From an uncultured Candidatus Saccharibacteria bacterium (GTDB lineage: Bacteria > Patescibacteriota > Minisyncoccia > Phycocordibacterales > PALSA-1337), in contig CAYQFS010000001.1 of NCBI GenBank assembly GCA_964416985.1, positions 153,365-217,364 of the forward strand: a DNA stretch of 64,000 bases. The letters are read 5' to 3'. Every line of letters starts with the position of its first letter. Position 1 is the stretch's first letter. The notes under the pieces are model-generated. The model was given only the letters and a program-made list of their open reading frames with translations. It was not told the origin of the DNA and did not search any database. A program made the translations under genes and the position numbers. Shown here one piece after another: positions 557 through 53,603 of the stretch.

Positions 557-1501
557 TTATTTGAAAGGAAAAGCAATGGTAAATGTGCTTCCTTTTCCTA
601 TTTCGCTTGTGACAGCAATAGTTCCCTTGAGATCATTTTCAACAATTGATTTTACGGTAGAAAGTCCAATGCCAGTTCCACGATCGGGAGGTTTTGTCGT
701 AAAAAACGGATTAAATATTTTTTCAATGTGAGAAGGGGAGATGCCACTGCCATTATCTTGTGCGACAAATATGATTGAGTAATCCTCTTTTAAAAGTGAG
801 AGATGTAGTATTTTTTGCTTAGAGTATTTTTCATCAAATGAATCAAGAGCGTTTGATATGAGGTTTGAAAAGACCTGGCGTAGCTTGATCGGATCGCCAT
901 GGTACATGACAGTAAGAGAAATATCGGTTGTGATAGTAACAGCCTCTGTCTTTGAACGAAATGAGAATAGCTCGATTACGTTTTTGAGTTCTTCTCCCGG
1001 GTTAAATTCATGGTCGGCCTGTTCTTTTTGCATACTTGTACGGATATTTTGTATATATGCGGCCATTCGTTTTGATGCATCAATAGCTTTCTCAAGATTT
1101 TTGTGGACGACACCTGCTTCAGCCGAAGCTGTTTTTAATTTTTCTGTGTGGAGGATAACAGATGTGAGTGGTGTCATAAGATCATGAAAGAGTCCTTGCG
1201 AGAGTCTTCCAAATTCTGCCACCTTCGCAAGCTCGTTCATTCTTTCAGTTCGGAACTGTTTCATTTCCTCGGTCTGTTCTTCAAGCTTACCAATGAGCAC
1301 CGCCTTTTCTTTTTCAAGGTCCTTTTCAGCATTCTTCATCTTATTTAAAGAGATTTTTATCTCTTTGTGTGAAAGGAGAAAAAGAGTAATGACGAGTACG
1401 ATTATAAGACCGATAATGACGAAGTCGAGAATCATAACATGTTTGTTGTAGCAAAATGCCCCATGAAGCGATAGGAGGATGATCCAGGCGCCCGTACCCA
1501 C
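557..1501 (-). CDS. sensor histidine kinase (HisKA + HATPase_c), single TM; N-terminus possibly continues in another frame up to 1647
   Basis: H-box 'HDLMTPLTSV'. N/G boxes 'DNGSGISPSHIEKIFNPFFTTK' and 'GTGIGLSTVKSIVE'. Lies directly downstream of the response regulator gene. Confidence 0.85.
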   Translation of the reverse strand: MGTGAWIILLSLHGAFCYNKHVMILDFVIIGLIIVLVITLFLLSHKEIKISLNKMKNAEKDLEKEKAVLIGKLEEQTEEMKQFRTERMNELAKVAEFGRLSQGLFHDLMTPLTSVILHTEKLKTASAEAGVVHKNLEKAIDASKRMAAYIQNIRTSMQKEQADHEFNPGEELKNVIELFSFRSKTEAVTITTDISLTVMYHGDPIKLRQVFSNLISNALDSFDEKYSKQKILHLSLLKEDYSIIFVAQDNGSGISPSHIEKIFNPFFTTKPPDRGTGIGLSTVKSIVENDLKGTIAVTSEIGKGSTFTIAFPFK

Positions 1502-1649
1502 GGAGGCAGGATCTTCTCTCGAATATCTTCACGAAGGCATTTTAAAGTGTCCACTTTTGCATCAATGTCGACCCATTGATTGAGATGAGTATACACACCC
1601 GAGATAAAATTCTGATAAAAAAGTTCTAAAGAAAAGTTAAAATCCATAG

Positions 1650-2318
1650 TTACAACTCAATTATGTAGCCTCGTCCAGGGATATTTCTAATGAGTTCACG
1701 CTTGTTGCCTGCATTCACTTTTTTTCGGAGATTTAGAATGTGTGCTTCTACGGTGTTTGAGAAGGGGTCACTTTCAGCATTCCAGACATGTTCCATTATC
1801 ATGCTTCTTGATAGGATAACACCTTGGTTCCTCATAAGATATTCGAGAAGGTTGTATTCTTTGCGGGTAAGATATATTGGGACACCATTTCTGAAAGCGC
1901 ATTGTCGTTCGATGTTGATACTTAATTCACCGATTGTGATTGTTGAATTCTCTATTTTCTTAGGGCGTCGCATGACTGCTTTGATACGTGCTTTGAGTTC
2001 ATCAAAGGAAAATGGTTTTGTTATGTAGTCATCAGCCCCCTTTTCAAGAGCTGCAATCTTTATCTTACTATCTCCTGTTACTGAGAGGAAAATAATGGGG
2101 ATTGTTGAGCCATAAGCTCTAATTTCACTACAGACCGTGAGACCATCCTTAGTGGGAAGGGAATAATCGAGAATAATAAGGTCGTATGTATTTGTCCTCG
2201 CCTCATATGATCCTTTTGCACCATCAGCCACCACATCGACTATATATCCTTCATCCATGAGGCTTTCACTCAGGTATTCAGATATATGAGGGTCATCCTC
2301 GATCACTATGATTTTCAT
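1650..2318 (-). CDS. OmpR/PhoB-family response regulator (REC + winged-helix)
   Basis: N-terminus 'MKIIVIEDDPHISEYL'. Conserved Asp/Lys of the receiver domain. C-terminal winged helix 'LTRKEYNLLEYLMRNQGVILSRSMI...GRGY'. Confidence 0.9.
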   Translation of the reverse strand: MKIIVIEDDPHISEYLSESLMDEGYIVDVVADGAKGSYEARTNTYDLIILDYSLPTKDGLTVCSEIRAYGSTIPIIFLSVTGDSKIKIAALEKGADDYITKPFSFDELKARIKAVMRRPKKIENSTITIGELSINIERQCAFRNGVPIYLTRKEYNLLEYLMRNQGVILSRSMIMEHVWNAESDPFSNTVEAHILNLRKKVNAGNKRELIRNIPGRGYIIEL

Positions 2319-2380
2319 GGGTCAATTATACTGGAATATCGAATAACGCAAGGGTTTTTGAGGGGAAATCTATCACAAAA

Positions 2381-2398
2381 ACTTTATCAAAACTTTAT
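2381..2398 (+). promoter_or_regulatory. Direct repeat ACTTTAT-N4-ACTTTAT (putative OmpR-family box), copy A, in the divergent RR/DedA-PAP2 intergenic region
   Basis: Two ACTTTAT heptamers at 11-bp periodicity inside a ~55-nt element that recurs at 6721-6770 and 25925-25985. Confidence 0.45.
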
Positions 2399-2440
2399 TA
2401 TTTTTTAGGTATTTCTTGATCATCAATATGGTATACTATA

Positions 2441-3721
2441 GTGTTATATCATATGCCACATACTATTCTCAATTTTCTTGACAGTCTTCCATCTCTCATT
2501 GCTCAGGGAGGGTACTGGGTCATGAGTATTATTGTCATTCTTGAAGGAGCACCTATTGTAGGATCCCTTCTTCCGGGTCATATTGCAATCGTTGCTGCTG
2601 GTTTTCTTGCCAAGATGGGGATTCTCAATGTCTGGTTTGTCATCATTGTTGGATCGATCTCAGCTATCATTGGCGATATGATTGGTTTCTTTGCTGGGAG
2701 GAAATATGGCTATCCTCTACTTTCAAAATTTGCAAAGTACATTTTTATAAAAGAAATTCATATCGAGAAAGCCAAGAAGCTTATTGGTGCTCATACAGGA
2801 AAATCTCTTATTATTGGAAAATTCAGTCCAGTGACTCGTCCGCTCACTCCATTTCTCGTCGGTGCAAGTAATGCTAATTTCAAGACATTCTGTTTTTATA
2901 ACATTGTGAGTGCGATCATCTGGATAACAGCTTCTGTAATGGTCGGATATGTTTTTGGAGCGAGTTACTCTGCTGCATCACATGTTCTTGGAAAATGGAT
3001 TGGAGTTGCCTTCATCATAACTATTCTCACAATTTGGGGATACCATTTTGCAAACAAGCGGTTCCATATCTTTAAGCGGTACGAGCTTTTTGTTCTCATT
3101 TTGAATCTCCTTGCTCTTTGGGGTCTCGCAAAAACAGTCCAAGATGCATTTTCCCTGAGGCCATTCCTTATAAATTTTGATGAATGGGTGAGTGCTTTTA
3201 TGCTCAGCCACGTTTCCCCAATATTTACTTCATTCGCTCTTCTCATCACACATCTTGGTAGCACCGAGGTGACCATTTCTCTTGGGATAATTATCGGAAT
3301 TGCTTTTCTCATCAAAAAGAAATGGAGAAGGGGAGCAATTATGCTTATGTCAGTCCTCTCGACAAGTGTTGCAGTTGTTTTTATAAAGGGAATTGTTGAA
3401 CGTGCACGTCCTGAAAATGCAGTAACCTTGTACGGTCTCGTTGATCCAAGCTTTCCAAGCGGTCACGCCGCTCTAGCCGCTGCATTTTTTGTGGCTTTAG
3501 CGTATATCCTTGCTCCACACATCAGTTCGTGGGTCAAAAGAGAATTGGTAATCGTTTTCTGTGTTCTCGCTGCCCTTGGCGTGGGGCTCAGTCGAATTGT
3601 CCTTAATGTTCATTGGGCATCAGATGTCATTGCTGGTTGGTGTCTCGGGGTCTTTCTTGCGACACTCTCAGTGCTTCTTGTGAGGTATGTTGGGTTTTTA
3701 TTTCTTAGCGAGGATAAGTGA
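2441..3721 (+). CDS. DedA/SNARE-associated membrane domain fused to a PAP2 (type-2 phosphatidic acid phosphatase/undecaprenyl-PP phosphatase-like) domain
   Basis: The N-terminal ~200 aa are polytopic with DedA-like glycine-rich helices ('GYWVMSIIVILEGAPIVGSLLPG'). The C-terminus carries PAP2 motifs 'KGIVERARP', 'PSGHA' and 'SRIVLNVHWASDVIAGW'. Confidence 0.75.
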   Translation: MLYHMPHTILNFLDSLPSLIAQGGYWVMSIIVILEGAPIVGSLLPGHIAIVAAGFLAKMGILNVWFVIIVGSISAIIGDMIGFFAGRKYGYPLLSKFAKYIFIKEIHIEKAKKLIGAHTGKSLIIGKFSPVTRPLTPFLVGASNANFKTFCFYNIVSAIIWITASVMVGYVFGASYSAASHVLGKWIGVAFIITILTIWGYHFANKRFHIFKRYELFVLILNLLALWGLAKTVQDAFSLRPFLINFDEWVSAFMLSHVSPIFTSFALLITHLGSTEVTISLGIIIGIAFLIKKKWRRGAIMLMSVLSTSVAVVFIKGIVERARPENAVTLYGLVDPSFPSGHAALAAAFFVALAYILAPHISSWVKRELVIVFCVLAALGVGLSRIVLNVHWASDVIAGWCLGVFLATLSVLLVRYVGFLFLSEDK

Positions 3722-5230
3722 TCGGCCGGTCATTTCCTTTACTTCGGGTAAATTGAGAAGATCGAGAACTGTAGGGGCAAGATCTGCAAGCCCACCTTCT
3801 CGTAATGTATAGTCTTTACTAGTTAGTATACAAGGGACTGGGTTGGTCGTGTGCGCTGTGTGTTTCTCACCTGATATTGGATCGATATTTACTTCTGCAT
3901 TTCCGTGATCTGCTGTGATGATGGCAATGCCACCTTTCTTTTCGAGAGCTTCAATTACTCGCTGTAGTTGTGTGTCAACAGTCTCTACAGCAGTGATGAT
4001 TGCTGGAACATTTGCTGTGTGTCCAACCATGTCTGCATTAGCAAAATTAATGAAAATGAAATCAATTCCTTTTTCAATTTCCTCGAGAGCTTTGTCAGCG
4101 ATTTCTTTTGCTCTCATTTCAGGTGCTTCATCGTGGGTTTTTATGTCTTTGTGACTCGCCACCATAATATGACGTTCACCTGTTTGAGGTTTTTCTCTTC
4201 CTGAATTAAGAAAGTAAGTAGCATGGGGGAACTTTTCAGTCTCAGCGATTCTACTCTGTAAGAGTCCAGCTTTTGAGATTTCTCCTCCTAGGGTTTTGTC
4301 TACAGTAACAGGAGGGAAGGCGACGTGTGAATTATATTCGCGTGCGTATTCGGTTAGAGTTACAACGTAGAGATTTTCAGTTTTTTGTTTCTCAAGAAGT
4401 TTTTGAGTAATCATTCGGGCTCGGTCAGCTCTGAAATTAAAGAAAAATACCCCGTCATTTTTTTCGAACGCACATCCTTTTCCATCAAGATTTGCACAGA
4501 CGGTAGGTTCGAGTAATTCATCATTTTTTCCAAGCTTGTACTGTTCTTCGAGGTATGATGAAGGTCGTATTTCGCAGACATTTCCCTTACACTCGAACAT
4601 TGCTTTTTCGGTTCTTGCAAGACGATCCCAGTTGTTATCTCGATCCATGGCATAGTAGCGCCCAGAAATCGTTGCAATAAAGAATTCCGGACCGAGCTCT
4701 TCGATGAGTGCTTCAAGTTCCTTGATATATTTTGATGCACTCTGTGGAGGTGTATCGCGTCCATCGGTAAAGATATGAATTGCAACCTTCTTCATTCCTT
4801 GAGCCTTTGCCTCTCTGAGAAAAGCGAAAAGGTGATTTTGATGGCTGTGTACGCCTCCAATGCTAAGAAGACCTTGCACATGCAAGGTTGAGTTATTTTT
4901 TCGGACATGGTCGAAGAGAGCCACAAAAGCAGGGTTGGTATGGAGAGCTCCTTCGGCGATTGCCTTGTCGATACGTACTAGGTCGGTATCTACAGGTTTT
5001 CCTGCACCTATTGTGGTGTGCCCAACTTCACTGTTTCCCATTTGTCCTTCAGGAAGCCCAACCGCGTTTCCAGATGCCTTAAGGAGAGAATGGGGATATT
5101 TCTCCCAGATTGAATTGAAAAATGGAGTTCTAGCGGCAGCAATAGCGTTATCTTTTTTTTCAACTCGATACCCCCAGCCATCAAGGACAATTAGCATTAC
5201 TGGCTTCTTCACGATCTTTGGTTTATTCAT
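3698..5230 (-). CDS. gpmI: 2,3-bisphosphoglycerate-independent phosphoglycerate mutase
   Basis: 'VMLIVLDGWGY' Mn-binding N-terminus and full-length iPGM architecture (~510 aa). The likely start is the internal Met of MNKPKIV. Confidence 0.9.
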   Translation of the reverse strand: MNKPKIVKKPVMLIVLDGWGYRVEKKDNAIAAARTPFFNSIWEKYPHSLLKASGNAVGLPEGQMGNSEVGHTTIGAGKPVDTDLVRIDKAIAEGALHTNPAFVALFDHVRKNNSTLHVQGLLSIGGVHSHQNHLFAFLREAKAQGMKKVAIHIFTDGRDTPPQSASKYIKELEALIEELGPEFFIATISGRYYAMDRDNNWDRLARTEKAMFECKGNVCEIRPSSYLEEQYKLGKNDELLEPTVCANLDGKGCAFEKNDGVFFFNFRADRARMITQKLLEKQKTENLYVVTLTEYAREYNSHVAFPPVTVDKTLGGEISKAGLLQSRIAETEKFPHATYFLNSGREKPQTGERHIMVASHKDIKTHDEAPEMRAKEIADKALEEIEKGIDFIFINFANADMVGHTANVPAIITAVETVDTQLQRVIEALEKKGGIAIITADHGNAEVNIDPISGEKHTAHTTNPVPCILTSKDYTLREGGLADLAPTVLDLLNLPEVKEMTGRSLILAKK

Positions 5231-5361
5231 ATGTCGCCCCATTCTAACCTTTTTTTGCTTTAATTTCTAATATGATCTAATGCCATAACACAAATGTGGA
5301 AATACTGTTGATAACTTGTTCGTAACTGGTGTTTTTATGTGGATAATGTGTTGGTTTCGGA

Positions 5362-6669
<1,308 letters not shown>

Positions 6670-20950: not shown

Positions 20951-21304
20951 TCAGGGTTCCTTGAAGATCTTTCTTGTTACGAAGTAACTAATGACGGTCA
21001 AGATGATAGTGATCGGTATTTGTGCCAAGAGATAATGGACTTTCCAACGTTCGACGAGCAGATAAAGGAGCAGAAAGTTGCTGGATACCGTAAAGACCGC
21101 GAGCCATGTATATTTGCCAGCCTCTCTTCCTGTCTTTTTTCTATCGATGCTTCTAAATGCCCAGAATTTCTGCATGTAGAAATTTACAATGTTATTTACT
21201 AAGAATGCGGCAACTGATGATAGTACATACCACATACCTAGGAATTCCGTAAACGTCCACATGATAATGTAGTAACAAATGACTCCTACACCACCTGCAG
21301 CCAA
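20951..21304 (-). CDS. GtrA-family membrane protein
   Basis: 117 aa, 4 TM, 'FLVNNIVNFYMQKFWAFR' GtrA-like motif. Confidence 0.5.
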   Translation of the reverse strand: MAAGGVGVICYYIIMWTFTEFLGMWYVLSSVAAFLVNNIVNFYMQKFWAFRSIDRKKTGREAGKYTWLAVFTVSSNFLLLYLLVERWKVHYLLAQIPITIILTVISYFVTRKIFKEP

Positions 21305-34357: not shown

Positions 34358-34442
34358 TCGGTAATCTCCGGTTAATTGTTTAATTTAAAATATCACCCAT
34401 AGCTACCCTTGTCAATGTCTATTAAATATAGTATGATTTCCT

Positions 34443-34732
34443 CACGTGACAGACAACCGCTGCTTGCCGCAAGGTGGGTAGAGGAAAGTCCGAACACCGG
34501 CCGCCGCAAGGCGTGCAGAAAGGTAGCGGGTAACGCCCGTCCATCGCGAGATGCGAGGTGCGAACAGTGACGAATCCCTTAAGTGGGAGTGAAACGGCAA
34601 AATCCTTACCCCGGTGCAAGGCCGTGCTCGCGTAAGCGAGAGTGCCGCTTGAGGCCCACCGCAAGGCGGGTCCCAGATAAATGGTTGTCGTCCGTCTTTT
34701 GGCGGATACAGAATTCGGCTTATCGTTACGTA
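34443..34732 (+). ncRNA. rnpB: RNase P RNA (bacterial type, reduced ~290 nt)
   Basis: P4 strands 'GAGGAAAGTCCGAAC' and 'ACAGAATTCGGCTTATCG'. 'GTGAAACGGC' J11/12-like segment. P1 pairing CGTGAC/GTTACG. GC-rich. Confidence 0.85.
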
Positions 34733-34740
34733 CATCAAAA

Positions 34741-34811: not shown

Positions 34812-37292
34812 ATGGATCTTCCAACAACACGTAACGATGCTCATGCTTCAGGAGTTTTCGAATCAAGAGCAGCCGAACATGTAAAAAATTCCTCAGGGCA
34901 GGGGATGTTTGAGCGGGTTTCTTTCTATCTTTTCCTCGCAACACTTTTTCTTGCACCTCTCGCATTCCTTCCTTCAGTACCTCTTGATGTTGTAAAGACT
35001 GTTATTGTGAGTGTCGGAGTTCTCGCAACGATTATTTTCTACATAGTTGGAATGATTCGAAACAAAAGTCTGAGCATTCCAAAGGGGGATCTTGCTTACG
35101 CATCTTTGGCTGTCGTTGCATCTCTTTTTGTTTCAGCATGTGTAAGTACAAATCCAGCAAAATCGTTCTTCGGTCAGGGATTTGAAATAGGTACGGCAAG
35201 TTTTCTCATCCTCATGTTTGTTGTCGCATTTTTCGTCGGAAAAATTGCTGAAAAAAATAAAGAAAGGACATTTAACATCTATGCTGCAATACTTATTTCC
35301 TTTATTATCGTCGCCCTCTTTCAGATTATGCGTATTTTGGGGGGTGAGGGCTTTATGACTCTTGGATTTTTGAACTCACTTGCTTCAACGATCGTAGGTA
35401 AATGGTATGATTTTGGAATATTTGCTGGCCTTGTGGGAATTCTCTCTCTCGTCGGTATAAAATTCCTTTCTCCAGGAAAAGGAATGAAAATACTTCTCAC
35501 AGTAGTCCTTCTCGTTTGCGGACTCTCTCTCTTTGTCGTTAATTTTAATTTGGCATGGTGGGCACTTGCAGTGACCTCTCTTGCCCTCGGAGTCTACGAA
35601 TACACTTCACGACCAGCACAGGGAAGCGGTCTCAAGAAAATTTTTTCACGAATTTCTCTCCTCACTCTCATAGTTCTCGTCATCTCAGTCTCTCTTGCTT
35701 GGAAGGGAAAGACTCTTGCTTCTCCGACAGCCGAAAAGTTGAGACTCAATTATGGAGAACTCATCCTTCCGTGGCAAATGACTATCGACGTAACGGCAGA
35801 CACGATCAAGGAATCGCCTTTCTTTGGAGCAGGCCCAAACCGCTTTGGAGTTGAATTTCTCAAATATAAGCCCTTCCAGGCGATCAATCCAAGCGCTTAC
35901 TGGGCAGCAGAGTTTACAAGTGGCTTTGGAATGCTTCCAACAGTTGGAGCAACTCAGGGAATTATCGGACTTGTGGCATGGGTCATCTTCTTCATCTTCT
36001 TCATTCGCCTTGGAATCAGCGGGCTTCGAAAGCAAGGCGATCATGTCAAGAGATTCATGATAACTTCTTCGTTCTTCGGAGCACTTTTCCTCTGGATTAT
36101 CCATTTCATGTACGTTTCTTCTCATGTAATGCTTTTCCTCGCATTTGTTATGACAGGACTTTTTATTGCTACTCTTGCACGAGAAGGCCTTGTTACTTTC
36201 AAGGAAATTGGACTCAGGGAGGGAAGTGGAAAGTTAAAGAAATATTCTCCAATTCTCTCCGCACTTCTTCTCGTAATTGCTATCGCATGGCTTGGTTCGT
36301 ATGTAAAGAAGGCAGTTGCTATTGCCTACTTCCAGAGTGGAGTTCGCCAGCTCAATTCAGCCCAGATGCCTGATGCCGCTCTTGCAAAATTCAAAAAAGC
36401 TCTCTTCTGGAATACGTCAGATGTTTATTACCAAGCAATGTCTGAAACAGATATTGTACGGATTGGAACATTAGCTCAGCAGATTCAGACAACAGCAGCA
36501 CAGACAGGAACACAGCCTGACGCAAAGGCAGTAGAACAAGTAACAAACCTCGTCACCGAGGCTTTGGATTATACAAAGAAGGCTGTTTCTATAGATCCGA
36601 CAAATTATTACAACTACTCAGCACAGGCTCATATTTTGGAAGTAGCATCTTCTCTCAAAATTCCAAATGCATATGAAAATGCAAAAGCAGCCTATGCCGC
36701 AGCTCTCGCTCTCAATCCATGGAACCCAGCTCTCTACCTCAAGCTCGCACGTCTCGAAGTCTCACAGAATCATCTTGCTGATGCTCAGCAGTATATTGGA
36801 CGAGCACTCCAGCTCAAGCAGAATTACACAGAAGCTATCTTCCTCCTTTCTCAGATACAGGTTGCCAATGGTCAGATAAAAGACGCTATCACATCGGTTC
36901 AAGTGGCGACACAGATCAATCCTTCAGAACCACTTCTATTCTTCCAGCTTGGATTCCTCTATTACAATGACAAAAATTATTCCGAGGCTGCTGCAGCTCT
37001 TTCAAAGGCAGTCGAGCTTGATCCTCAGTACGCAAACGCTCGATACTTCCTCGGTCTCTCATATTCGCGACTTGGAAAGAATCTTGATGCTATAACTCAG
37101 TTTGAAGAGCTCGCAAAAACCAATCCAAATAGCCAAGAGGTTGCTTTCATCCTCGGAAATCTCAAGGCAGGGAAGTCGCCGTTTACTGATGCGGCTGCTC
37201 CTATCGACAGCAAGCCTGAAAAGAGATCGACTCTTCCAATTGATGAGACAAAGACCAAGGACAAGCCTGCAACAAAAGCAAAAGCAAAATAA
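34812..37292 (+). CDS. O-antigen ligase (Wzy_C)-like polytopic membrane protein with C-terminal TPR repeats
   Basis: ~10 TM helices, 'SPFFGAGPNRFGVEF' ligase loop, ~6 TPR repeats, Lys/Ala tail. Confidence 0.7.
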   Translation: MDLPTTRNDAHASGVFESRAAEHVKNSSGQGMFERVSFYLFLATLFLAPLAFLPSVPLDVVKTVIVSVGVLATIIFYIVGMIRNKSLSIPKGDLAYASLAVVASLFVSACVSTNPAKSFFGQGFEIGTASFLILMFVVAFFVGKIAEKNKERTFNIYAAILISFIIVALFQIMRILGGEGFMTLGFLNSLASTIVGKWYDFGIFAGLVGILSLVGIKFLSPGKGMKILLTVVLLVCGLSLFVVNFNLAWWALAVTSLALGVYEYTSRPAQGSGLKKIFSRISLLTLIVLVISVSLAWKGKTLASPTAEKLRLNYGELILPWQMTIDVTADTIKESPFFGAGPNRFGVEFLKYKPFQAINPSAYWAAEFTSGFGMLPTVGATQGIIGLVAWVIFFIFFIRLGISGLRKQGDHVKRFMITSSFFGALFLWIIHFMYVSSHVMLFLAFVMTGLFIATLAREGLVTFKEIGLREGSGKLKKYSPILSALLLVIAIAWLGSYVKKAVAIAYFQSGVRQLNSAQMPDAALAKFKKALFWNTSDVYYQAMSETDIVRIGTLAQQIQTTAAQTGTQPDAKAVEQVTNLVTEALDYTKKAVSIDPTNYYNYSAQAHILEVASSLKIPNAYENAKAAYAAALALNPWNPALYLKLARLEVSQNHLADAQQYIGRALQLKQNYTEAIFLLSQIQVANGQIKDAITSVQVATQINPSEPLLFFQLGFLYYNDKNYSEAAAALSKAVELDPQYANARYFLGLSYSRLGKNLDAITQFEELAKTNPNSQEVAFILGNLKAGKSPFTDAAAPIDSKPEKRSTLPIDETKTKDKPATKAKAK

Positions 37293-37309: not shown

Positions 37310-38989
37310 ATGGTAAAAAGGTTCTTCAGCCTCTTCGGGAAGGAAATTACAGGGATTCATGAGGCGGCGTATCTTCTGGCCTTTTTTGCCTTTGCTTCGC
37401 AACTTCTTGCTCTTGTCCGCGACAAGCTCCTTGCATTTAGTTTTGGTGCGGGACCTCTTCTCGATATCTACTACGCGGCCTTTCGAATCCCAGATCTCAT
37501 CTTTGTCTCGATAGCATCAGTAGTTTCGGCTTCGGTTCTTATTCCTTTTTTCATCGACCGGACTCAAAATGATGCAGATAAAGGAAGGGAATTCATCGAT
37601 AATGTTTTCTCGGCATTCTTTATTGCAGTTGTTTTAACGAGTATTGTTGTTGGAATCTTTGCTCCGCAACTTGTGGCCTTTCTTCTCCCCGGGTTTGCTC
37701 ATGGCACATCTCTCCCGCTCATCATTACTGCAACAAGAATTCTTCTTCTTTCTCCTGTTCTCCTCGGTATTTCCAATTTCTTTTCTAGCATTACCCAGAT
37801 GCACAGAAGATTTTTAGTCTACGCCTTGAGCCCTCTCGTTTACAACGTTGGTATTATCATCGGCATTGTTTGTCTCTACCCAGTTTTTGGAATGGTTGGT
37901 CTCATCTGGGGAGTTGTCATTGGAGCTTTTCTTCATATGGCAATTCAGATCCCGTTCATCATAAACACTGGCTTCTTTCCTCGCTTTCGTTTTGCTATCG
38001 ATTTTTCTGCCATCAAAAAAGTTGTTTTCATTTCTCTCCCACGGACCCTTACTCTCTCGTCAAACCAGCTCGCTTCTTTTTTCCTCGTTGCTCTTGCGTC
38101 TCTCATGAGTGGGGGATCGATCTCTATTTTTAACCTCGCATTCAACCTTCAGTCGGTACCTCTCTCAATTGTTGGTGTGAGCTATTCCTCAGCAATTTTT
38201 CCTACACTCTCAAAATTCTTTGTAAATGGGGAACGGGCCGGTTTTCTCCAGAAAATGATCGAATCAGCACGGCATATTATTTTCTGGTCGATCCCAATTA
38301 CTGTCCTTTTTGTCGTCCTTCGCGCACAGATTGTTCGTACAATTTATGGGGCAGGGCAATTTGACTGGGCTGATACTCGTCTTACAGCTGCAACTCTTGC
38401 CATCTTTATTCTTTCTGTTGTTGGTCAGAGCCTCATTCTTCTTTTTGTTCGTGCATATTATGCCGAAGGAAAGACCTCAAAACCTCTCATTGTGAATATT
38501 GTCTCAGCTGTCGTCATTGCCACTCTTGGTTACATCCTTACAAAAGCTTTCTATGCTTTTCCGATATTTGCTTACTTCATTGAAGAAATTTTCAAAGTTT
38601 CAGGTCAAGGGGGCACGAGCGTCCTCGTCCTTGCTCTCGCATATTCTCTCGGTGTCTTTTTGAACACCTATCTCCACTGGTATATGTTTGAGAGGGATTA
38701 TCCTGGTTTCACTCGCCCAGTCCTCATCACCCTTTTCCAGAGTTTTGCTTCCTCCGTCATCATGGGCTATGTGACGTTCGTCTCTCTTCGTTTCTTTGAT
38801 CTTTTCTTTTCTCTTGAAAAAGCTTGGGGTGTTTTTTTCCAGGGATTCTGTGCTGGAATCGTAGGAATTATTTCGGGAATTATCGTTCTCGTTCTGCTTA
38901 AAAATAATGAAATAAAGGAGGTGTGGAATACGCTCCACCATAAGTTCTGGAAGTCAAAGGTAGTGGTGCCAGATCAGGAGACGTTGTGA
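37310..38989 (+). CDS. murJ: lipid II flippase MurJ
   Basis: 'LALVRDKLLAFSFGAGPLLDIYYAAFRIPD' MurJ/MviN N-terminus. 14 TM helices. Confidence 0.9.
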   Translation: MVKRFFSLFGKEITGIHEAAYLLAFFAFASQLLALVRDKLLAFSFGAGPLLDIYYAAFRIPDLIFVSIASVVSASVLIPFFIDRTQNDADKGREFIDNVFSAFFIAVVLTSIVVGIFAPQLVAFLLPGFAHGTSLPLIITATRILLLSPVLLGISNFFSSITQMHRRFLVYALSPLVYNVGIIIGIVCLYPVFGMVGLIWGVVIGAFLHMAIQIPFIINTGFFPRFRFAIDFSAIKKVVFISLPRTLTLSSNQLASFFLVALASLMSGGSISIFNLAFNLQSVPLSIVGVSYSSAIFPTLSKFFVNGERAGFLQKMIESARHIIFWSIPITVLFVVLRAQIVRTIYGAGQFDWADTRLTAATLAIFILSVVGQSLILLFVRAYYAEGKTSKPLIVNIVSAVVIATLGYILTKAFYAFPIFAYFIEEIFKVSGQGGTSVLVLALAYSLGVFLNTYLHWYMFERDYPGFTRPVLITLFQSFASSVIMGYVTFVSLRFFDLFFSLEKAWGVFFQGFCAGIVGIISGIIVLVLLKNNEIKEVWNTLHHKFWKSKVVVPDQETL

Positions 38990-53129: not shown

Positions 53130-53603
53130 TTAAAGGATGATGTCCGATCCATCCATCTCGGTACGCACCGCAGCATTTTGGATAGCGACGGCATCGTCGA
53201 GCGTAATGTCACCGATCACTTCGCCACAACCACTGCAACAGAGGTTGAACAATGTGACCTGAATCCCGAACTTTTCCCGCAGATGATGTTCGAGTTGCAA
53301 TCGTGCAGCAACGTCCCCGACGACGTCATGGACTTTTTCTGCCAGACCATCATTGTCGTCCGCATGCTCGACATAATAATTCCGATTCACACCGGCCTTT
53401 CGAGTGACAGTCTCATGGAAAGGATTCGTTACCTTGTCACGGAAATTAGCCGTGAGTTGCTCCAGGCGTTCCAAAACACCTGGAAATGTTTCATTAAGGC
53501 CAGCAATAAATCCTTGCGGGTGGCCCCAAACTTTCTTTGCACTGCTACAATTCATAACAATTTCTCCGTTTATTTTTTGGTGAACTAATGCCAAACCGTA
53601 CAA
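53130..53603 (-). CDS. hypothetical protein (CCSGCG motif), co-oriented with ParA/MinD-like ATPase
   Basis: 157-aa ORF. An overlapping plus-strand ORF is judged spurious. Confidence 0.4.
   Translation of the reverse strand: MYGLALVHQKINGEIVMNCSSAKKVWGHPQGFIAGLNETFPGVLERLEQLTANFRDKVTNPFHETVTRKAGVNRNYYVEHADDNDGLAEKVHDVVGDVAARLQLEHHLREKFGIQVTLFNLCCSGCGEVIGDITLDDAVAIQNAAVRTEMDGSDIIL

What the first reader, a model, noticed from the sequence alone, without database searches (positions are those of the whole stretch)
2441..3721. DedA-PAP2 fusion protein: possible single-polypeptide undecaprenyl-phosphate recycling module
The N-terminal half has DedA-family topology and the C-terminal half carries all three PAP2 phosphatase motifs (KxxxxxxRP, PSGH, SRxxxxxHxxxD). 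From established knowledge, DedA-family proteins have been implicated in undecaprenyl-phosphate (C55-P) translocation, and PAP2 enzymes (PgpB/BcrC type) dephosphorylate C55-PP on the outer leaflet.

A covalent fusion would couple dephosphorylation and flipping. Its placement directly under the putative response-regulator box fits an envelope-stress response.
Basis: inference. Interest (0 to 1): 0.55.

Follow-up and report, generated by a model that had tools for sequence, protein, structure and literature searches.

The report
Known DedA–PAP2 fused membrane protein
This gene encodes one membrane protein joining a DedA-type lipid-transporter domain to a PAP2 lipid phosphatase, an architecture already catalogued and discussed in the literature as a possible cell-wall lipid-carrier recycling unit, so it is a real but ordinary member of a known class whose function is still unproven.

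Summary
ORF 2441..3721(+) (likely start ATG 2453; 422 aa) carries an N-terminal COG0586-type DedA domain and a C-terminal six-helix PAP2 phosphatase with all three catalytic motifs intact. Family-wide charge bias and homology predict that the motifs face outward.

The architecture is not new. NCBI names homologues "bifunctional DedA family/phosphatase PAP2 family protein". Three papers (Roney & Rudner; Sit et al.; Todor et al.) already cite DedA–PAP2 fusions as support for coupled C55-PP dephosphorylation and C55-P flipping. This window belongs to a large Patescibacterial clade (210 clusters at 50% identity with E≤1e-30).

The functional reading stays plausible but unproven:
- Scores are far below the UptA and undecaprenyl-diphosphatase equivalog cut-offs.
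- The residue equivalent to essential YqjA Asp51 is an invariant His.
- The one fusion tested genetically (P. aeruginosa PA4011) did not behave as a C55-P flippase.
- Some relatives keep only the PAP2 half at the same locus.

The regulatory claim is weak. The divergent response regulator/kinase pair accompanies only 4 of 31 close loci. The 11-nt direct repeat occurs only in this window, and its unit is not enriched.

The parts
2453..3721 (+). Coding sequence of the bifunctional DedA/PAP2 membrane protein (422 aa plus stop). The longest ORF begins at GTG 2441.
   Evidence: ORF; both Pfam domains; 100% identical 422-aa database protein P0001; coordinates checked.
2453..3067 (+). DedA (VTT) domain, COG0586 subfamily, aa 1-205. 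Key residues: E31 (2543-2545), H43 (2579-2581), D75 (2675-2677), K123 (2819-2821), R129 (2837-2839), W157 (2921-2923).
   Evidence: Pfam PF09335. Mapping to E. coli YqjA/YghB: E39->E31, D51->H43, R130->K123, R136->R129. Scores 67-116 bits to the five E. coli COG0586 paralogs vs <=10 bits to COG0398/COG1238. Invariant columns.
3053..3088 (+). Basic linker NKRFHIFKRYEL (aa 201-212) between the last DedA helix and the first PAP2 helix; predicted cytoplasmic.
   Evidence: Family mean 3.0 K+R vs 1.0 D+E. YqjA C-terminus (G217C) is cytoplasmic by SCAM. AF2 shows a break between helices 183-204 and 209-233.
3077..3703 (+). PAP2 lipid phosphate phosphatase domain, six predicted transmembrane helices (aa 209-417). 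Motifs: C1 KGIVERARP (3386-3412), C2 PSGH (3455-3466), C3 SRIVLNVHWASD (3590-3625).
   Evidence: Pfam PF01569. phmmer to 5JKI E=3.7e-17. Foldseek to 5JKI: target TM-score 0.79 over 209 columns. Motif residues invariant in 60 homologues and intact in 56/57 locus fusions plus all 120 three-domain fusions.
2319..2452 (.). Divergent intergenic region between the response-regulator gene and the fusion gene. It contains a -10-like TATAAT for the RR gene (2325-2330, minus strand), a tandem 11-nt repeat (2378-2399) and an extended -10-like TGGTATACT (2429-2437).
   Evidence: Sequence; repeat. TGnTATAMT-like elements lie just upstream of the fusion gene in L001, L002 and L006. These are consensus resemblances only.
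2378..2399 (+). Real sequence feature, function unsupported.
   Evidence: 2 copies, 91% identical. Not present in L001/L002/L006. The 10-mer is not enriched in the window: 11 matches vs 11.1 expected.
1650..2318 (-). OmpR/PhoB-type response regulator, divergently transcribed from the fusion gene.
   Evidence: Pfam Response_reg + Trans_reg_C. Same arrangement in L001, L002 and L006 only.
557..1501 (-). Histidine kinase (likely start ATG 1435, ~292 aa) with a single N-terminal membrane anchor and no extracytoplasmic sensor domain.
   Evidence: Pfam HisKA + HATPase_c. N-terminal architecture shared with the 286-297-aa kinases of L001, L002 and L006.
3698..5242 (-). Convergent cofactor-independent phosphoglycerate mutase gene. 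Its 3' end overlaps the fusion gene's 3' end by 24 nt. With enolase (5362..6645, minus strand) it is the most conserved neighbour of the fusion gene.
   Evidence: Pfam iPGM_N/Metalloenzyme. iPGM and/or enolase downstream in 23 of 31 close loci. Overlap. No terminator-like site.
37310..38989 (+). Context only: MurJ lipid II flippase gene in the same window. It shows that the organism uses a polyprenyl-phosphate carrier cycle.
   Evidence: Pfam MurJ PF03023, 228.8 bits.

Best explanation
The gene encodes a member of the known 'bifunctional DedA family/phosphatase PAP2 family protein' class, belonging to a large clade typical of Patescibacteria (CPR).

**Shown**
- One polypeptide carries an N-terminal COG0586-type DedA domain (two re-entrant hairpins plus membrane helices). 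It conserves the Glu (E31) and the two basic residues (K123, R129) that are essential in YqjA/YghB and bind C55-P in UptA.
- A short basic linker follows.
- The C-terminal half is a six-helix PAP2 phosphatase with all catalytic residues intact.

**Predicted**

**Inferred mechanism**
- Undecaprenyl pyrophosphate released outside by peptidoglycan polymerisation is hydrolysed to undecaprenyl phosphate by the PAP2 half.
- The product is then bound by the basic hairpin tip of the adjacent DedA half and returned to the inner leaflet.
- The two consecutive recycling steps are thus co-localised in fixed 1:1 stoichiometry.

Substrate identity, transport activity and any true kinetic coupling are all inferred, not shown.
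For: - **Domain identity:** both domains score above Pfam gathering thresholds.
- **DedA subfamily:** the DedA half belongs to COG0586, the subfamily holding all proposed UndP flippases (Todor et al.).
- **Conserved DedA residues:** E31, R129 and W157 are invariant, and position 123 is K/R. They match UptA E32, R112, R118 and W146, which are implicated in C55-P binding.
- **PAP2 motifs:** K/RP, SGH and SR/H/D are invariant with canonical spacing.
- **Structure:** the AF2 model has mean pLDDT 82. The PAP2 half superposes on B. subtilis PgpB 5JKI with TM-score 0.79.
- **Topology:** positive-inside bias of 22.7 vs 5.9 K+R; YqjA C-terminus cytoplasmic; PAP2 signature residues lie at the membrane-periplasm interface in PgpB.
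- **Need for the pathway:** MurJ is encoded in the same window, so a lipid II carrier cycle exists.
- **Published logic:** dedA-pap2 adjacency and fusion have been read as sequential steps of the lipid II cycle.
- **Selection:** both halves are conserved together in hundreds of lineages.
Against: - **No biochemical data** exist for any DedA-PAP2 fusion.
- **PA4011 genetics:** the only genetically tested fusion, P. aeruginosa PA4011, neither affected fosmidomycin sensitivity nor rescued the true flippase mutant. [quoted passage not shown] Its sequence relationship to this protein could not be measured.
- **Below equivalog cut-offs:** UptA 57 bits vs 250; undecaprenyl-diphosphatase SepP 45.5 vs 250; PgpB 34 vs 261.
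- **Asp51 position:** the residue equivalent to YqjA Asp51 is essential there. Here it is an invariant His, and it is non-acidic in about 92% of 240 sampled fusions.
- **Substrate ambiguity:** the closest solved PAP2 is a phosphatidylglycerophosphate phosphatase. E. coli YbjG and PgpB are equally distant.
- **Separable halves:** two Patescibacterial relatives keep only the PAP2 half in the same locus, so the DedA half is dispensable there.
- **Domain packing:** inter-domain packing in the model is uncertain (pTM 0.60; pLDDT 60-65 over aa 171-210).
Confidence: 0.55

Rival explanations
1. Membrane-lipid remodelling module. The PAP2 half dephosphorylates glycerophospholipid substrates (phosphatidylglycerophosphate, phosphatidic or lysophosphatidic acid). 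The DedA half moves or scrambles phospholipids, as PetA and TMEM41B/VMP1 do. The protein would then serve phospholipid synthesis, salvage or asymmetry rather than carrier-lipid recycling.
For: - The closest solved and closest characterised relative of the PAP2 half is the B. subtilis PGP phosphatase YodM/PgpB.
- PAP2 enzymes are promiscuous; PgpB acts on both PGP and C55-PP.
- DedA members transport other lipids, e.g. PetA and phosphatidylethanolamine.
- The authors of the PA4011 study suggest 'phosphoregulation or membrane lipid remodeling' for that fusion.
- The Asp51 equivalent is not acidic.
Against: - The DedA half is COG0586, not the COG0398/COG1238 subfamilies linked to scramblase-type roles.
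- It keeps the Glu/Arg/Arg/Trp set implicated in C55-P binding.
- The organism needs C55-PP recycling, since it encodes MurJ, and no other candidate lies in the 64-kb window.
- E. coli YabI, also COG0586, likewise has a non-acidic residue at this position.
Confidence: 0.25
2. Phosphatase with an accessory, non-transporting DedA domain. Only the PAP2 half is catalytically relevant. The DedA half has lost proton-coupled transport and serves as a membrane scaffold, a dimerisation module or a substrate/product-binding module.
For: - Standalone PAP2 proteins of the same clade occupy the same syntenic slot in L030 and L049.
- The Asp51 and Ser52 equivalents, needed for YqjA function, are His and Ile here.
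- PA4011 cannot replace a bona fide flippase.
Against: - Many DedA positions are invariant across a family only ~50% identical overall: E31, P34, G37, P41, G42, H43, D75, R129, W157 and others. This argues for a conserved active function, not a mere anchor.
- The non-acidic 'Asp51' position is shared with the closest standalone DedA proteins of this subclade and with E. coli YabI. It is therefore a subfamily trait and not a sign of decay.
Confidence: 0.12
3. Regulatory add-on. The fusion gene is a direct target of the divergently encoded OmpR-type response regulator. Regulation would act through the tandem AAAACTTTAT repeat, as part of an envelope-stress response.
For: - The divergent RR-HK pair is adjacent in the window and its three nearest genomic relatives (52-63% protein identity).
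- The kinase has a single membrane anchor and no external sensor domain, the architecture typical of intramembrane-sensing envelope-stress kinases.
- A tandem repeat with 11-nt period lies roughly 30-55 nt upstream of a -10-like element, a geometry typical of OmpR-family sites (general knowledge).
Against: - RR/HK adjacency is found in only 4 of 31 close loci. The conserved neighbours are convergent glycolytic genes.
- The repeat is absent from L001, L002 and L006, whose intergenic regions are only 111, 56 and 45 nt.
- The 10-mer is not over-represented in the window (11 vs 11.1 expected).
- No experimental or comparative evidence for binding exists.
Confidence: 0.2
4. Annotation or assembly artefact: two adjacent genes (dedA and pap2) merged by a sequencing error or a read-through ORF call.
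For: dedA and pap2 do occur as adjacent separate genes in some genomes.
Against: - The ORF is continuous, with a conserved basic linker.
- All 120 best homologues, 57 locus ORFs from independent assemblies and most of the 150 best 50%-identity cluster representatives are single proteins of the same length.
Confidence: 0.01

Closest known systems
'Bifunctional DedA family/phosphatase PAP2 family protein' (NCBI name); DedA-PAP2 fusions described by Roney & Rudner (10.1101/2022.02.03.479048), Sit et al. (10.1101/2022.02.04.479082) and Todor et al. (PMC9881974)
   Same: Same domain order (DedA then PAP2), same length class (~420-445 aa) and the same proposed logic of two consecutive lipid II-cycle steps in one protein. 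Homologues 49-57% identical already carry this NCBI name. About 1.3% of dedA genes are reported as fused to pap2.
   Different: Nothing architectural. The papers did not single out the Patescibacterial clade, and no paper in the searchable library discusses it. No fusion has been characterised biochemically.
P. aeruginosa PA4011 (437-aa DedA-PAP2 fusion; PMC12893004)
   Same: Same two-domain architecture and similar length. It is the only such fusion tested genetically.
   Different: PA4011 did not behave as a C55-P flippase, in a host that has six DedA paralogs. Its sequence relationship to the window protein could not be measured with these tools.
UptA (B. subtilis YngC) and E. coli YqjA/YghB/DedA/YabI/YohD: COG0586 DedA proteins, proposed proton-coupled undecaprenyl-phosphate flippases
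   Same: COG0586 membership. Conserved Glu (E31), two basic residues six apart on the second hairpin (K123, R129) and Trp (W157). Same predicted hairpin/helix layout.
   Different: Only 26-32% identical. Far below the UptA equivalog cut-off. The Asp51 equivalent is His; an Asp (D75) sits where UptA has Gln64. Fused to a phosphatase.
Membrane PAP2 lipid phosphatases: B. subtilis YodM/PgpB (PDB 5JKI), BcrC, E. coli PgpB/YbjG/LpxT
   Same: All three signature motifs with canonical spacing. Six-helix fold: TM-score 0.79 to 5JKI at 28% identity. Predicted outward-facing site.
   Different: Only 23-27 bits to E. coli PgpB/YbjG against the family profile. Below all NCBIfam equivalog cut-offs. Lacks PgpB's ~70-residue periplasmic insert (spacer of 14 residues). 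Substrate unknown.
DedA-PAP2-LssY_C three-domain proteins (~703 aa)
   Same: Same DedA-PAP2 core, with intact PAP2 motifs and a non-acidic residue (Ser) at the Asp51 position.
   Different: They carry an extra C-terminal LssY_C domain (PF14067) and are only ~25-30% identical. They occur mainly in Proteobacteria and Desulfobacterota, with a few in CPR.

Membership tests
PAP2 superfamily membrane lipid phosphate phosphatase (PF01569) | Profile match above the curated threshold | tested here: met
   84.8 bits vs gathering 27.2, aa 299-416 of the 426-aa ORF.
PAP2 superfamily membrane lipid phosphate phosphatase (PF01569) | Signature K(X6)RP-(X12-54)-PSGH-(X31-54)-SR(X5)H(X3)D | tested here: met
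   K312...R319 P320; 14-residue spacer; P335 S336 G337 H338; 41-residue spacer; S380 R381...H387...D391. Definition from PMC7413402.
PAP2 superfamily membrane lipid phosphate phosphatase (PF01569) | Six-helix membrane PAP2 fold | tested here: met
   The AF2 model (pLDDT mostly 84-97 over aa 211-410, dipping to 57-76 in the 311-330 loop) superposes on 5JKI with target TM-score 0.79, rmsd 3.7 Å over 209 columns. This is a prediction, not an experiment.
PAP2 superfamily membrane lipid phosphate phosphatase (PF01569) | Active site on the extracytoplasmic face | tested here: inconclusive
   Supported by the positive-inside count across 60 homologues, the cytoplasmic C-terminus of YqjA and the PgpB topology.
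Undecaprenyl-diphosphatase (BcrC/SepP/YbjG type) | Equivalog-level sequence match or demonstrated C55-PP hydrolysis | tested here: not met
   SepP model 45.5 bits vs cut-off 250; PgpB 34.1 vs 261. YbjG 27 bits and PgpB 23 bits against the family profile. Enzymatic activity is not testable here.
DedA/VTT family, COG0586 subfamily | Profile match above threshold, and closer to COG0586 than to COG0398/COG1238 | tested here: met
   PF09335 62.4 bits vs gathering 33.9. Scores of 67-116 bits to E. coli DedA, YabI, YqjA, YohD and YghB vs 2-10 bits to YdjX, YdjZ and YqaA.
DedA/VTT family, COG0586 subfamily | Conserved Glu on hairpin 1 and two basic residues on hairpin 2 (YqjA E39, R130, R136) | tested here: met
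   E31, K123 (Arg in most homologues) and R129.
DedA/VTT family, COG0586 subfamily | Second acidic residue on hairpin 1 (YqjA/YghB Asp51) | tested here: not met
   His43 is invariant in the close clade. Across 240 fusions the residue is H 136, Q 46, E 19, D 1 and others 38. It is Ser in 119 of 120 three-domain fusions. E. coli YabI also has Thr here, so this does not exclude membership of COG0586.
UptA (undecaprenyl-phosphate transporter) equivalog | NCBIfam equivalog score, or demonstrated C55-P binding or flipping | tested here: not met
   NF052604 57.3 bits vs cut-off 250; NF052605 43.7 vs 300. Transport is not testable with these tools.
Bifunctional DedA/PAP2 fusion class | Both domains in one ORF, DedA N-terminal, with full-length homologues of the same architecture | tested here: met
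   Homologues carry the NCBI name 'bifunctional DedA family/phosphatase PAP2 family protein'.
Target of the adjacent OmpR-type two-component system | Conserved regulator-binding repeat in the shared promoter region, and conserved adjacency | tested here: not met
   The repeat occurs only in the window and is not enriched. Adjacency holds in 4 of 31 close loci. Binding itself is not testable here.

The most novel reading that the evidence does not exclude
In these genome-reduced Patescibacteria the DedA-PAP2 fusion may be the only machinery for recycling the cell-wall lipid carrier, acting as both phosphatase and flippase. It would use a variant ion-coupling site (His43/Asp75 in place of the Glu/Asp pair of YqjA). 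In the subclade that includes this window, the neighbouring sensor-less histidine kinase would monitor carrier-lipid flux through the fusion protein, much as BceS-type kinases use their transporter as co-sensor.
Probability: 0.08. Interest if true: 0.55.

Novelty: already known. Interest (0 to 1): 0.2.

Why it matters
If the fusion really couples C55-PP dephosphorylation to C55-P return, it would be natural evidence that the last two steps of the lipid II cycle can work as one unit. CPR bacteria, with few paralogs, would be a cleaner system for testing this than Pseudomonas, where the one tested fusion gave a negative result.

The architecture, its naming and this exact hypothesis are already in the literature and in NCBI annotation, so the finding adds a member and not a concept. 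This analysis adds four modest points:
- The Patescibacterial clade is large and uniform.
- Fusions, and the DedA subclade they derive from, almost always lack the acidic residue equivalent to YqjA Asp51 and instead carry a conserved Asp in the next helix.
- PAP2-only variants exist at the same locus.
- The suggested two-component regulation is confined to a small subclade and lacks a conserved binding site.

Tried and rejected
1. **'Fusions never have an acidic residue at the Asp51 position.'** This was suggested by 57 locus ORFs. A broader sample showed 20 of 240 with E/D, and showed that the closest standalone DedA proteins are also non-acidic. It is a subclade trait and not a consequence of fusion.

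2. **Retrieving a PA4011 orthologue to measure relatedness.**
- Two cluster look-ups returned only metagenomic, CPR, Actinomycetota, Desulfovibrionales, Syntrophales and one archaeon-labelled member.
- A profile search with non-CPR fusions returned only the ~703-aa LssY_C family.

3. **Looking up the identical protein for a long annotated contig.** Only 1.6-2.8-kb Logan contigs came back.

4. **Discriminating the PAP2 substrate by similarity.** Comparison with E. coli PgpB, YbjG and LpxT was uninformative (27, 23 and 7 bits).

5. **Second DedA or PAP2 gene in the window.** None was found with family profiles. UppP/BacA and DUF368 were not searched with profiles.

6. **Conserved regulator site.** None was seen in the four RR-adjacent intergenic regions beyond -10-like elements. 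The promoter scan gave background counts, 4 vs 4.3 expected, and found no terminator.

7. **Structured RNA near the locus.** Rfam and tRNA scans found nothing there.

8. **Solved DedA structure.** There is none in the PDB copy.

Full report
**Observation**

The window contains an uninterrupted ORF at 2441..3721 on the + strand (426 aa from GTG).
- Pfam assigns a DedA/VTT domain (PF09335, 62.4 bits, gathering 33.9) to the N-terminal half. It assigns a PAP2 domain (PF01569, 84.8 bits, gathering 27.2) to the C-terminal half.
- Residues are numbered from the more likely start, ATG 2453. The three PAP2 motifs are K312-x6-R319-P320, P335-S336-G337-H338 and S380-R381-x5-H387-x3-D391. Their spacers of 14 and 41 residues fall inside the published signature ranges.
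- ATG 2453 is preferred for three reasons. The identical database protein is 422 aa. Relatives begin at the aligned position. A TGGTATACT extended -10-like element ends 3 nt before GTG 2441.

**It is a real fusion and a big family**

- All 120 best hits in the 5.8-billion-protein collection are single proteins of about 420-440 aa carrying both domains.
- An exhaustive search of 1.84 billion cluster representatives at 50% identity found 210 with E≤1e-30, mostly full-length fusions.
The closest 31 loci, window included, are all Patescibacteria (Paceibacterota, Parcubacteria, Taylorbacteria, or labelled 'Saccharibacteria').
- More distant DedA-PAP2 fusions occur in Actinomycetota, Desulfovibrionales (a cultured Oceanidesulfovibrio marinus), Syntrophales and Proteobacteria.
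- A very large related family adds a C-terminal LssY_C domain.

**It is already known**

- NCBI names homologues 49-57% identical to this protein 'bifunctional DedA family/phosphatase PAP2 family protein'.
- Roney & Rudner report that dedA and pap2 are adjacent or fused, with about 1.3% of dedA genes fused. They read this as two sequential steps of the lipid II cycle.
- Todor et al. note PF01569 fusions within the COG0586 subfamily.
- I found no paper in the searchable library dealing with the Patescibacterial clade specifically.

**Anatomy of the DedA half**

- A profile of the family's N-terminal half scores 67-116 bits against the five E. coli COG0586 paralogs. It scores only 2-10 bits against the COG0398 and COG1238 paralogs.
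- The four residues essential in YqjA/YghB map as follows: E39→E31, D51→H43, R130→K123 (Arg in most homologues) and R136→R129.
- E31, H43, D75, R129 and W157 are invariant in 60 homologues that are only about 50% identical overall.
- E31, K/R123, R129 and W157 correspond to UptA E32, R112, R118 and W146, whose mutation lowers C55-P binding. D75 corresponds to UptA Q64.
- Asp51 is described as conserved in COG0586 and is required in YqjA, so His43 is a genuine departure.
  - I first thought it was fusion-specific, since no acidic residue appeared in 57 locus fusions.
  - A broader sample gave H 136, Q 46, E 19, D 1 and others 38 among 240 fusions.
  - The nearest standalone DedA proteins are also non-acidic there.
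  - E. coli YabI has Thr at this position, together with the TM2 Asp.
  - The 120 three-domain fusions have Ser or Thr.
  - It is therefore a trait of the DedA subclade from which the fusions arose. Its meaning for ion coupling is unknown.

**Anatomy of the PAP2 half and topology**

- The PAP2 half matches B. subtilis YodM/PgpB (5JKI) by sequence (E=3.7e-17).
- In the AlphaFold model (mean pLDDT 82.2, pTM 0.60) it also matches by fold: target TM-score 0.79 over 209 columns.
- No DedA structure exists in the PDB copy.
- I took the model's helix boundaries and counted K+R across the 60-sequence alignment.
  - Segments predicted cytoplasmic carry 22.7 K+R on average. These are the 82-118 amphipathic region, the linker 201-212, the loops 286-294 and 355-364, and the C-terminus.
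  - Segments predicted external carry 5.9, most of them catalytic-motif residues.
- SCAM on YqjA places its C-terminus in the cytoplasm and V180 in the periplasm. The linker should therefore be cytoplasmic and the PAP2 domain should start inside.
- That is the canonical arrangement, which puts the signature residues at the outer membrane interface, as in PgpB.
- This supports the outward-facing site, but it remains a prediction.

**Function**

For the recycling model:
- COG0586 membership and the conserved substrate-binding residues.
- An intact phosphatase predicted to face outward.
- Co-conservation of both halves in hundreds of lineages.
- The presence of MurJ (228.8 bits) and a GtrA-family protein in the same window, which shows a polyprenyl-phosphate carrier cycle that must be closed.
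- No second DedA or PAP2 gene in the 64 kb.

Against it:
- Scores are far below NCBIfam equivalog cut-offs for UptA, SepP and PgpB.
- The PAP2 half is equidistant from the C55-PP-specific YbjG and the dual-specificity PgpB. Its nearest characterised relative is a PGP phosphatase.
- Most importantly, the only fusion tested genetically is P. aeruginosa PA4011 (437 aa).
  - Its deletion did not change fosmidomycin sensitivity.
  - Its deletion did not aggravate loss of the real flippase PA4029.
  - Its overexpression could not rescue the PA4029 mutant.
  - P. aeruginosa has six DedA paralogs, and I could not determine how PA4011 relates to this clade. The result lowers confidence but does not decide the matter.
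- Two Patescibacterial relatives (L030, L049) carry a standalone 178-190-aa PAP2 of this clade in the same slot next to the convergent iPGM gene, with no DedA half. The phosphatase is the constant element there.

I put the coupled C55-PP phosphatase/C55-P transporter model at about 0.55, a phospholipid-remodelling role at about 0.25, and an accessory non-transporting DedA half at about 0.12.

**Regulation**

- The divergent neighbours are an OmpR-type response regulator (1650..2318, minus strand) and a histidine kinase (557..1501, likely start 1435).
- In the window and the three relatives that share this arrangement, the kinase is about 290 aa. It has a single N-terminal membrane helix and no external sensor domain.
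- RR/HK adjacency is limited to 4 of 31 close loci. By contrast, iPGM and/or enolase lie convergently downstream in 23 of 31.
- The tandem repeat AAAACTTTATC/AAAACTTTATT (2378-2399) is real. However:
  - It is missing from the three syntenic relatives, whose intergenic regions are 111, 56 and 45 nt.
  - The 10-mer occurs at chance frequency in the window (11 vs 11.1).
- What the four loci share are -10-like elements close to both start codons.
- The envelope-stress reading is possible for this small subclade but is not supported by comparative evidence (about 0.2).

**Verdict**

This is a correctly spotted and correctly dissected gene that belongs to a class already named and already interpreted in the same way in the literature. 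It is best filed as already known, and specifically as an uncharacterised member of a known class. The mechanistic claim remains an open, testable hypothesis, and recent genetics on one distant member cautions against it.

Noticed in passing
L056:5944-8076, L035:73-2217 and 120 proteins P0313-P0432: There is a very large three-domain family, DedA-PAP2-LssY_C (~703 aa; PF09335+PF01569+PF14067), with at least 3,175 hits at E<=1e-10. It occurs in Desulfobulbaceae, Psychromonas ingrahamii 37, Marinobacter and Nitrospirae, and in a few CPR. Its signature is uniform (E-S-D-R-K-W) and the PAP2 motifs are intact. The role of the LssY_C domain is unknown.
   Followed up: partly
P0113 (684 aa, JGI contig of 2,950 nt): One CPR member of the family carries an extra C-terminal histidine-phosphatase/dPGM-like domain (PF00300, 105.7 bits). 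The usual downstream neighbour is instead a convergent cofactor-independent phosphoglycerate mutase. This could be a real tri-domain fusion or a merged gene call.
   Followed up: no
L030:2657-3229 and L049:6019-6555: Standalone 190- and 178-aa PAP2 proteins of the same clade (52% and 38% identity to the window's PAP2 half) occupy the same locus next to the convergent iPGM gene, with no DedA half. They start after the position of the first PAP2 helix of the fusion, so they are natural split or loss variants.
   Followed up: partly
window 3698-6645 (minus strand) and 23 of 31 related loci: The convergent iPGM-enolase pair downstream of the fusion gene is the most conserved synteny of this family. 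In the window the 3' ends of the fusion gene and iPGM overlap by 24 nt, with no terminator-like structure.
   Followed up: partly
window 557-1501 (minus strand); L001:4122-5015, L002:4107-5000, L006:1575-2435: The histidine kinases next to the fusion gene are ~290 aa, with one N-terminal membrane helix and no extracytoplasmic domain (intramembrane-sensing type). They might depend on a membrane partner for signal input.
   Followed up: partly
window 1436-1649: A 214-nt gap separates the response-regulator stop from the likely kinase start. It holds a 71-aa ORF (1432..1647, minus strand) with no homologue in any fetched locus. L001 has a similar ~205-nt gap, whereas in L002 and L006 the two genes are 3-4 nt apart.
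   Followed up: partly
window 2316-2330 (minus strand): A TATAAT hexamer lies only 6 nt upstream of the response regulator's ATG and is conserved in L001 and L006. This suggests a leaderless transcript. The fusion gene likewise has an extended -10-like element 15 nt upstream of ATG 2453 and no obvious Shine-Dalgarno sequence.
   Followed up: no
window 34441-34738 (+): A bacterial RNase P RNA (class A, 115.9 bits) is only 298 nt long against a 367-position model, so it is a reduced version. ORFs called on the opposite strand there are spurious.
   Followed up: no
window 53407-53490 (+): ARAGORN reports an 84-nt tRNA-Asp(GTC) with the anticodon at position 30. Rfam's tRNA model does not report it at gathering threshold, so it is either an unusual tRNA or a false positive.
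   Followed up: no
window 37310-38989 (+), 20951-21304 (-), 34812-37292 (+): Cell-envelope genes elsewhere in the window include MurJ (lipid II flippase), a GtrA-family protein, and an 826-aa membrane protein with C-terminal TPR repeats directly upstream of murJ.
   Followed up: partly
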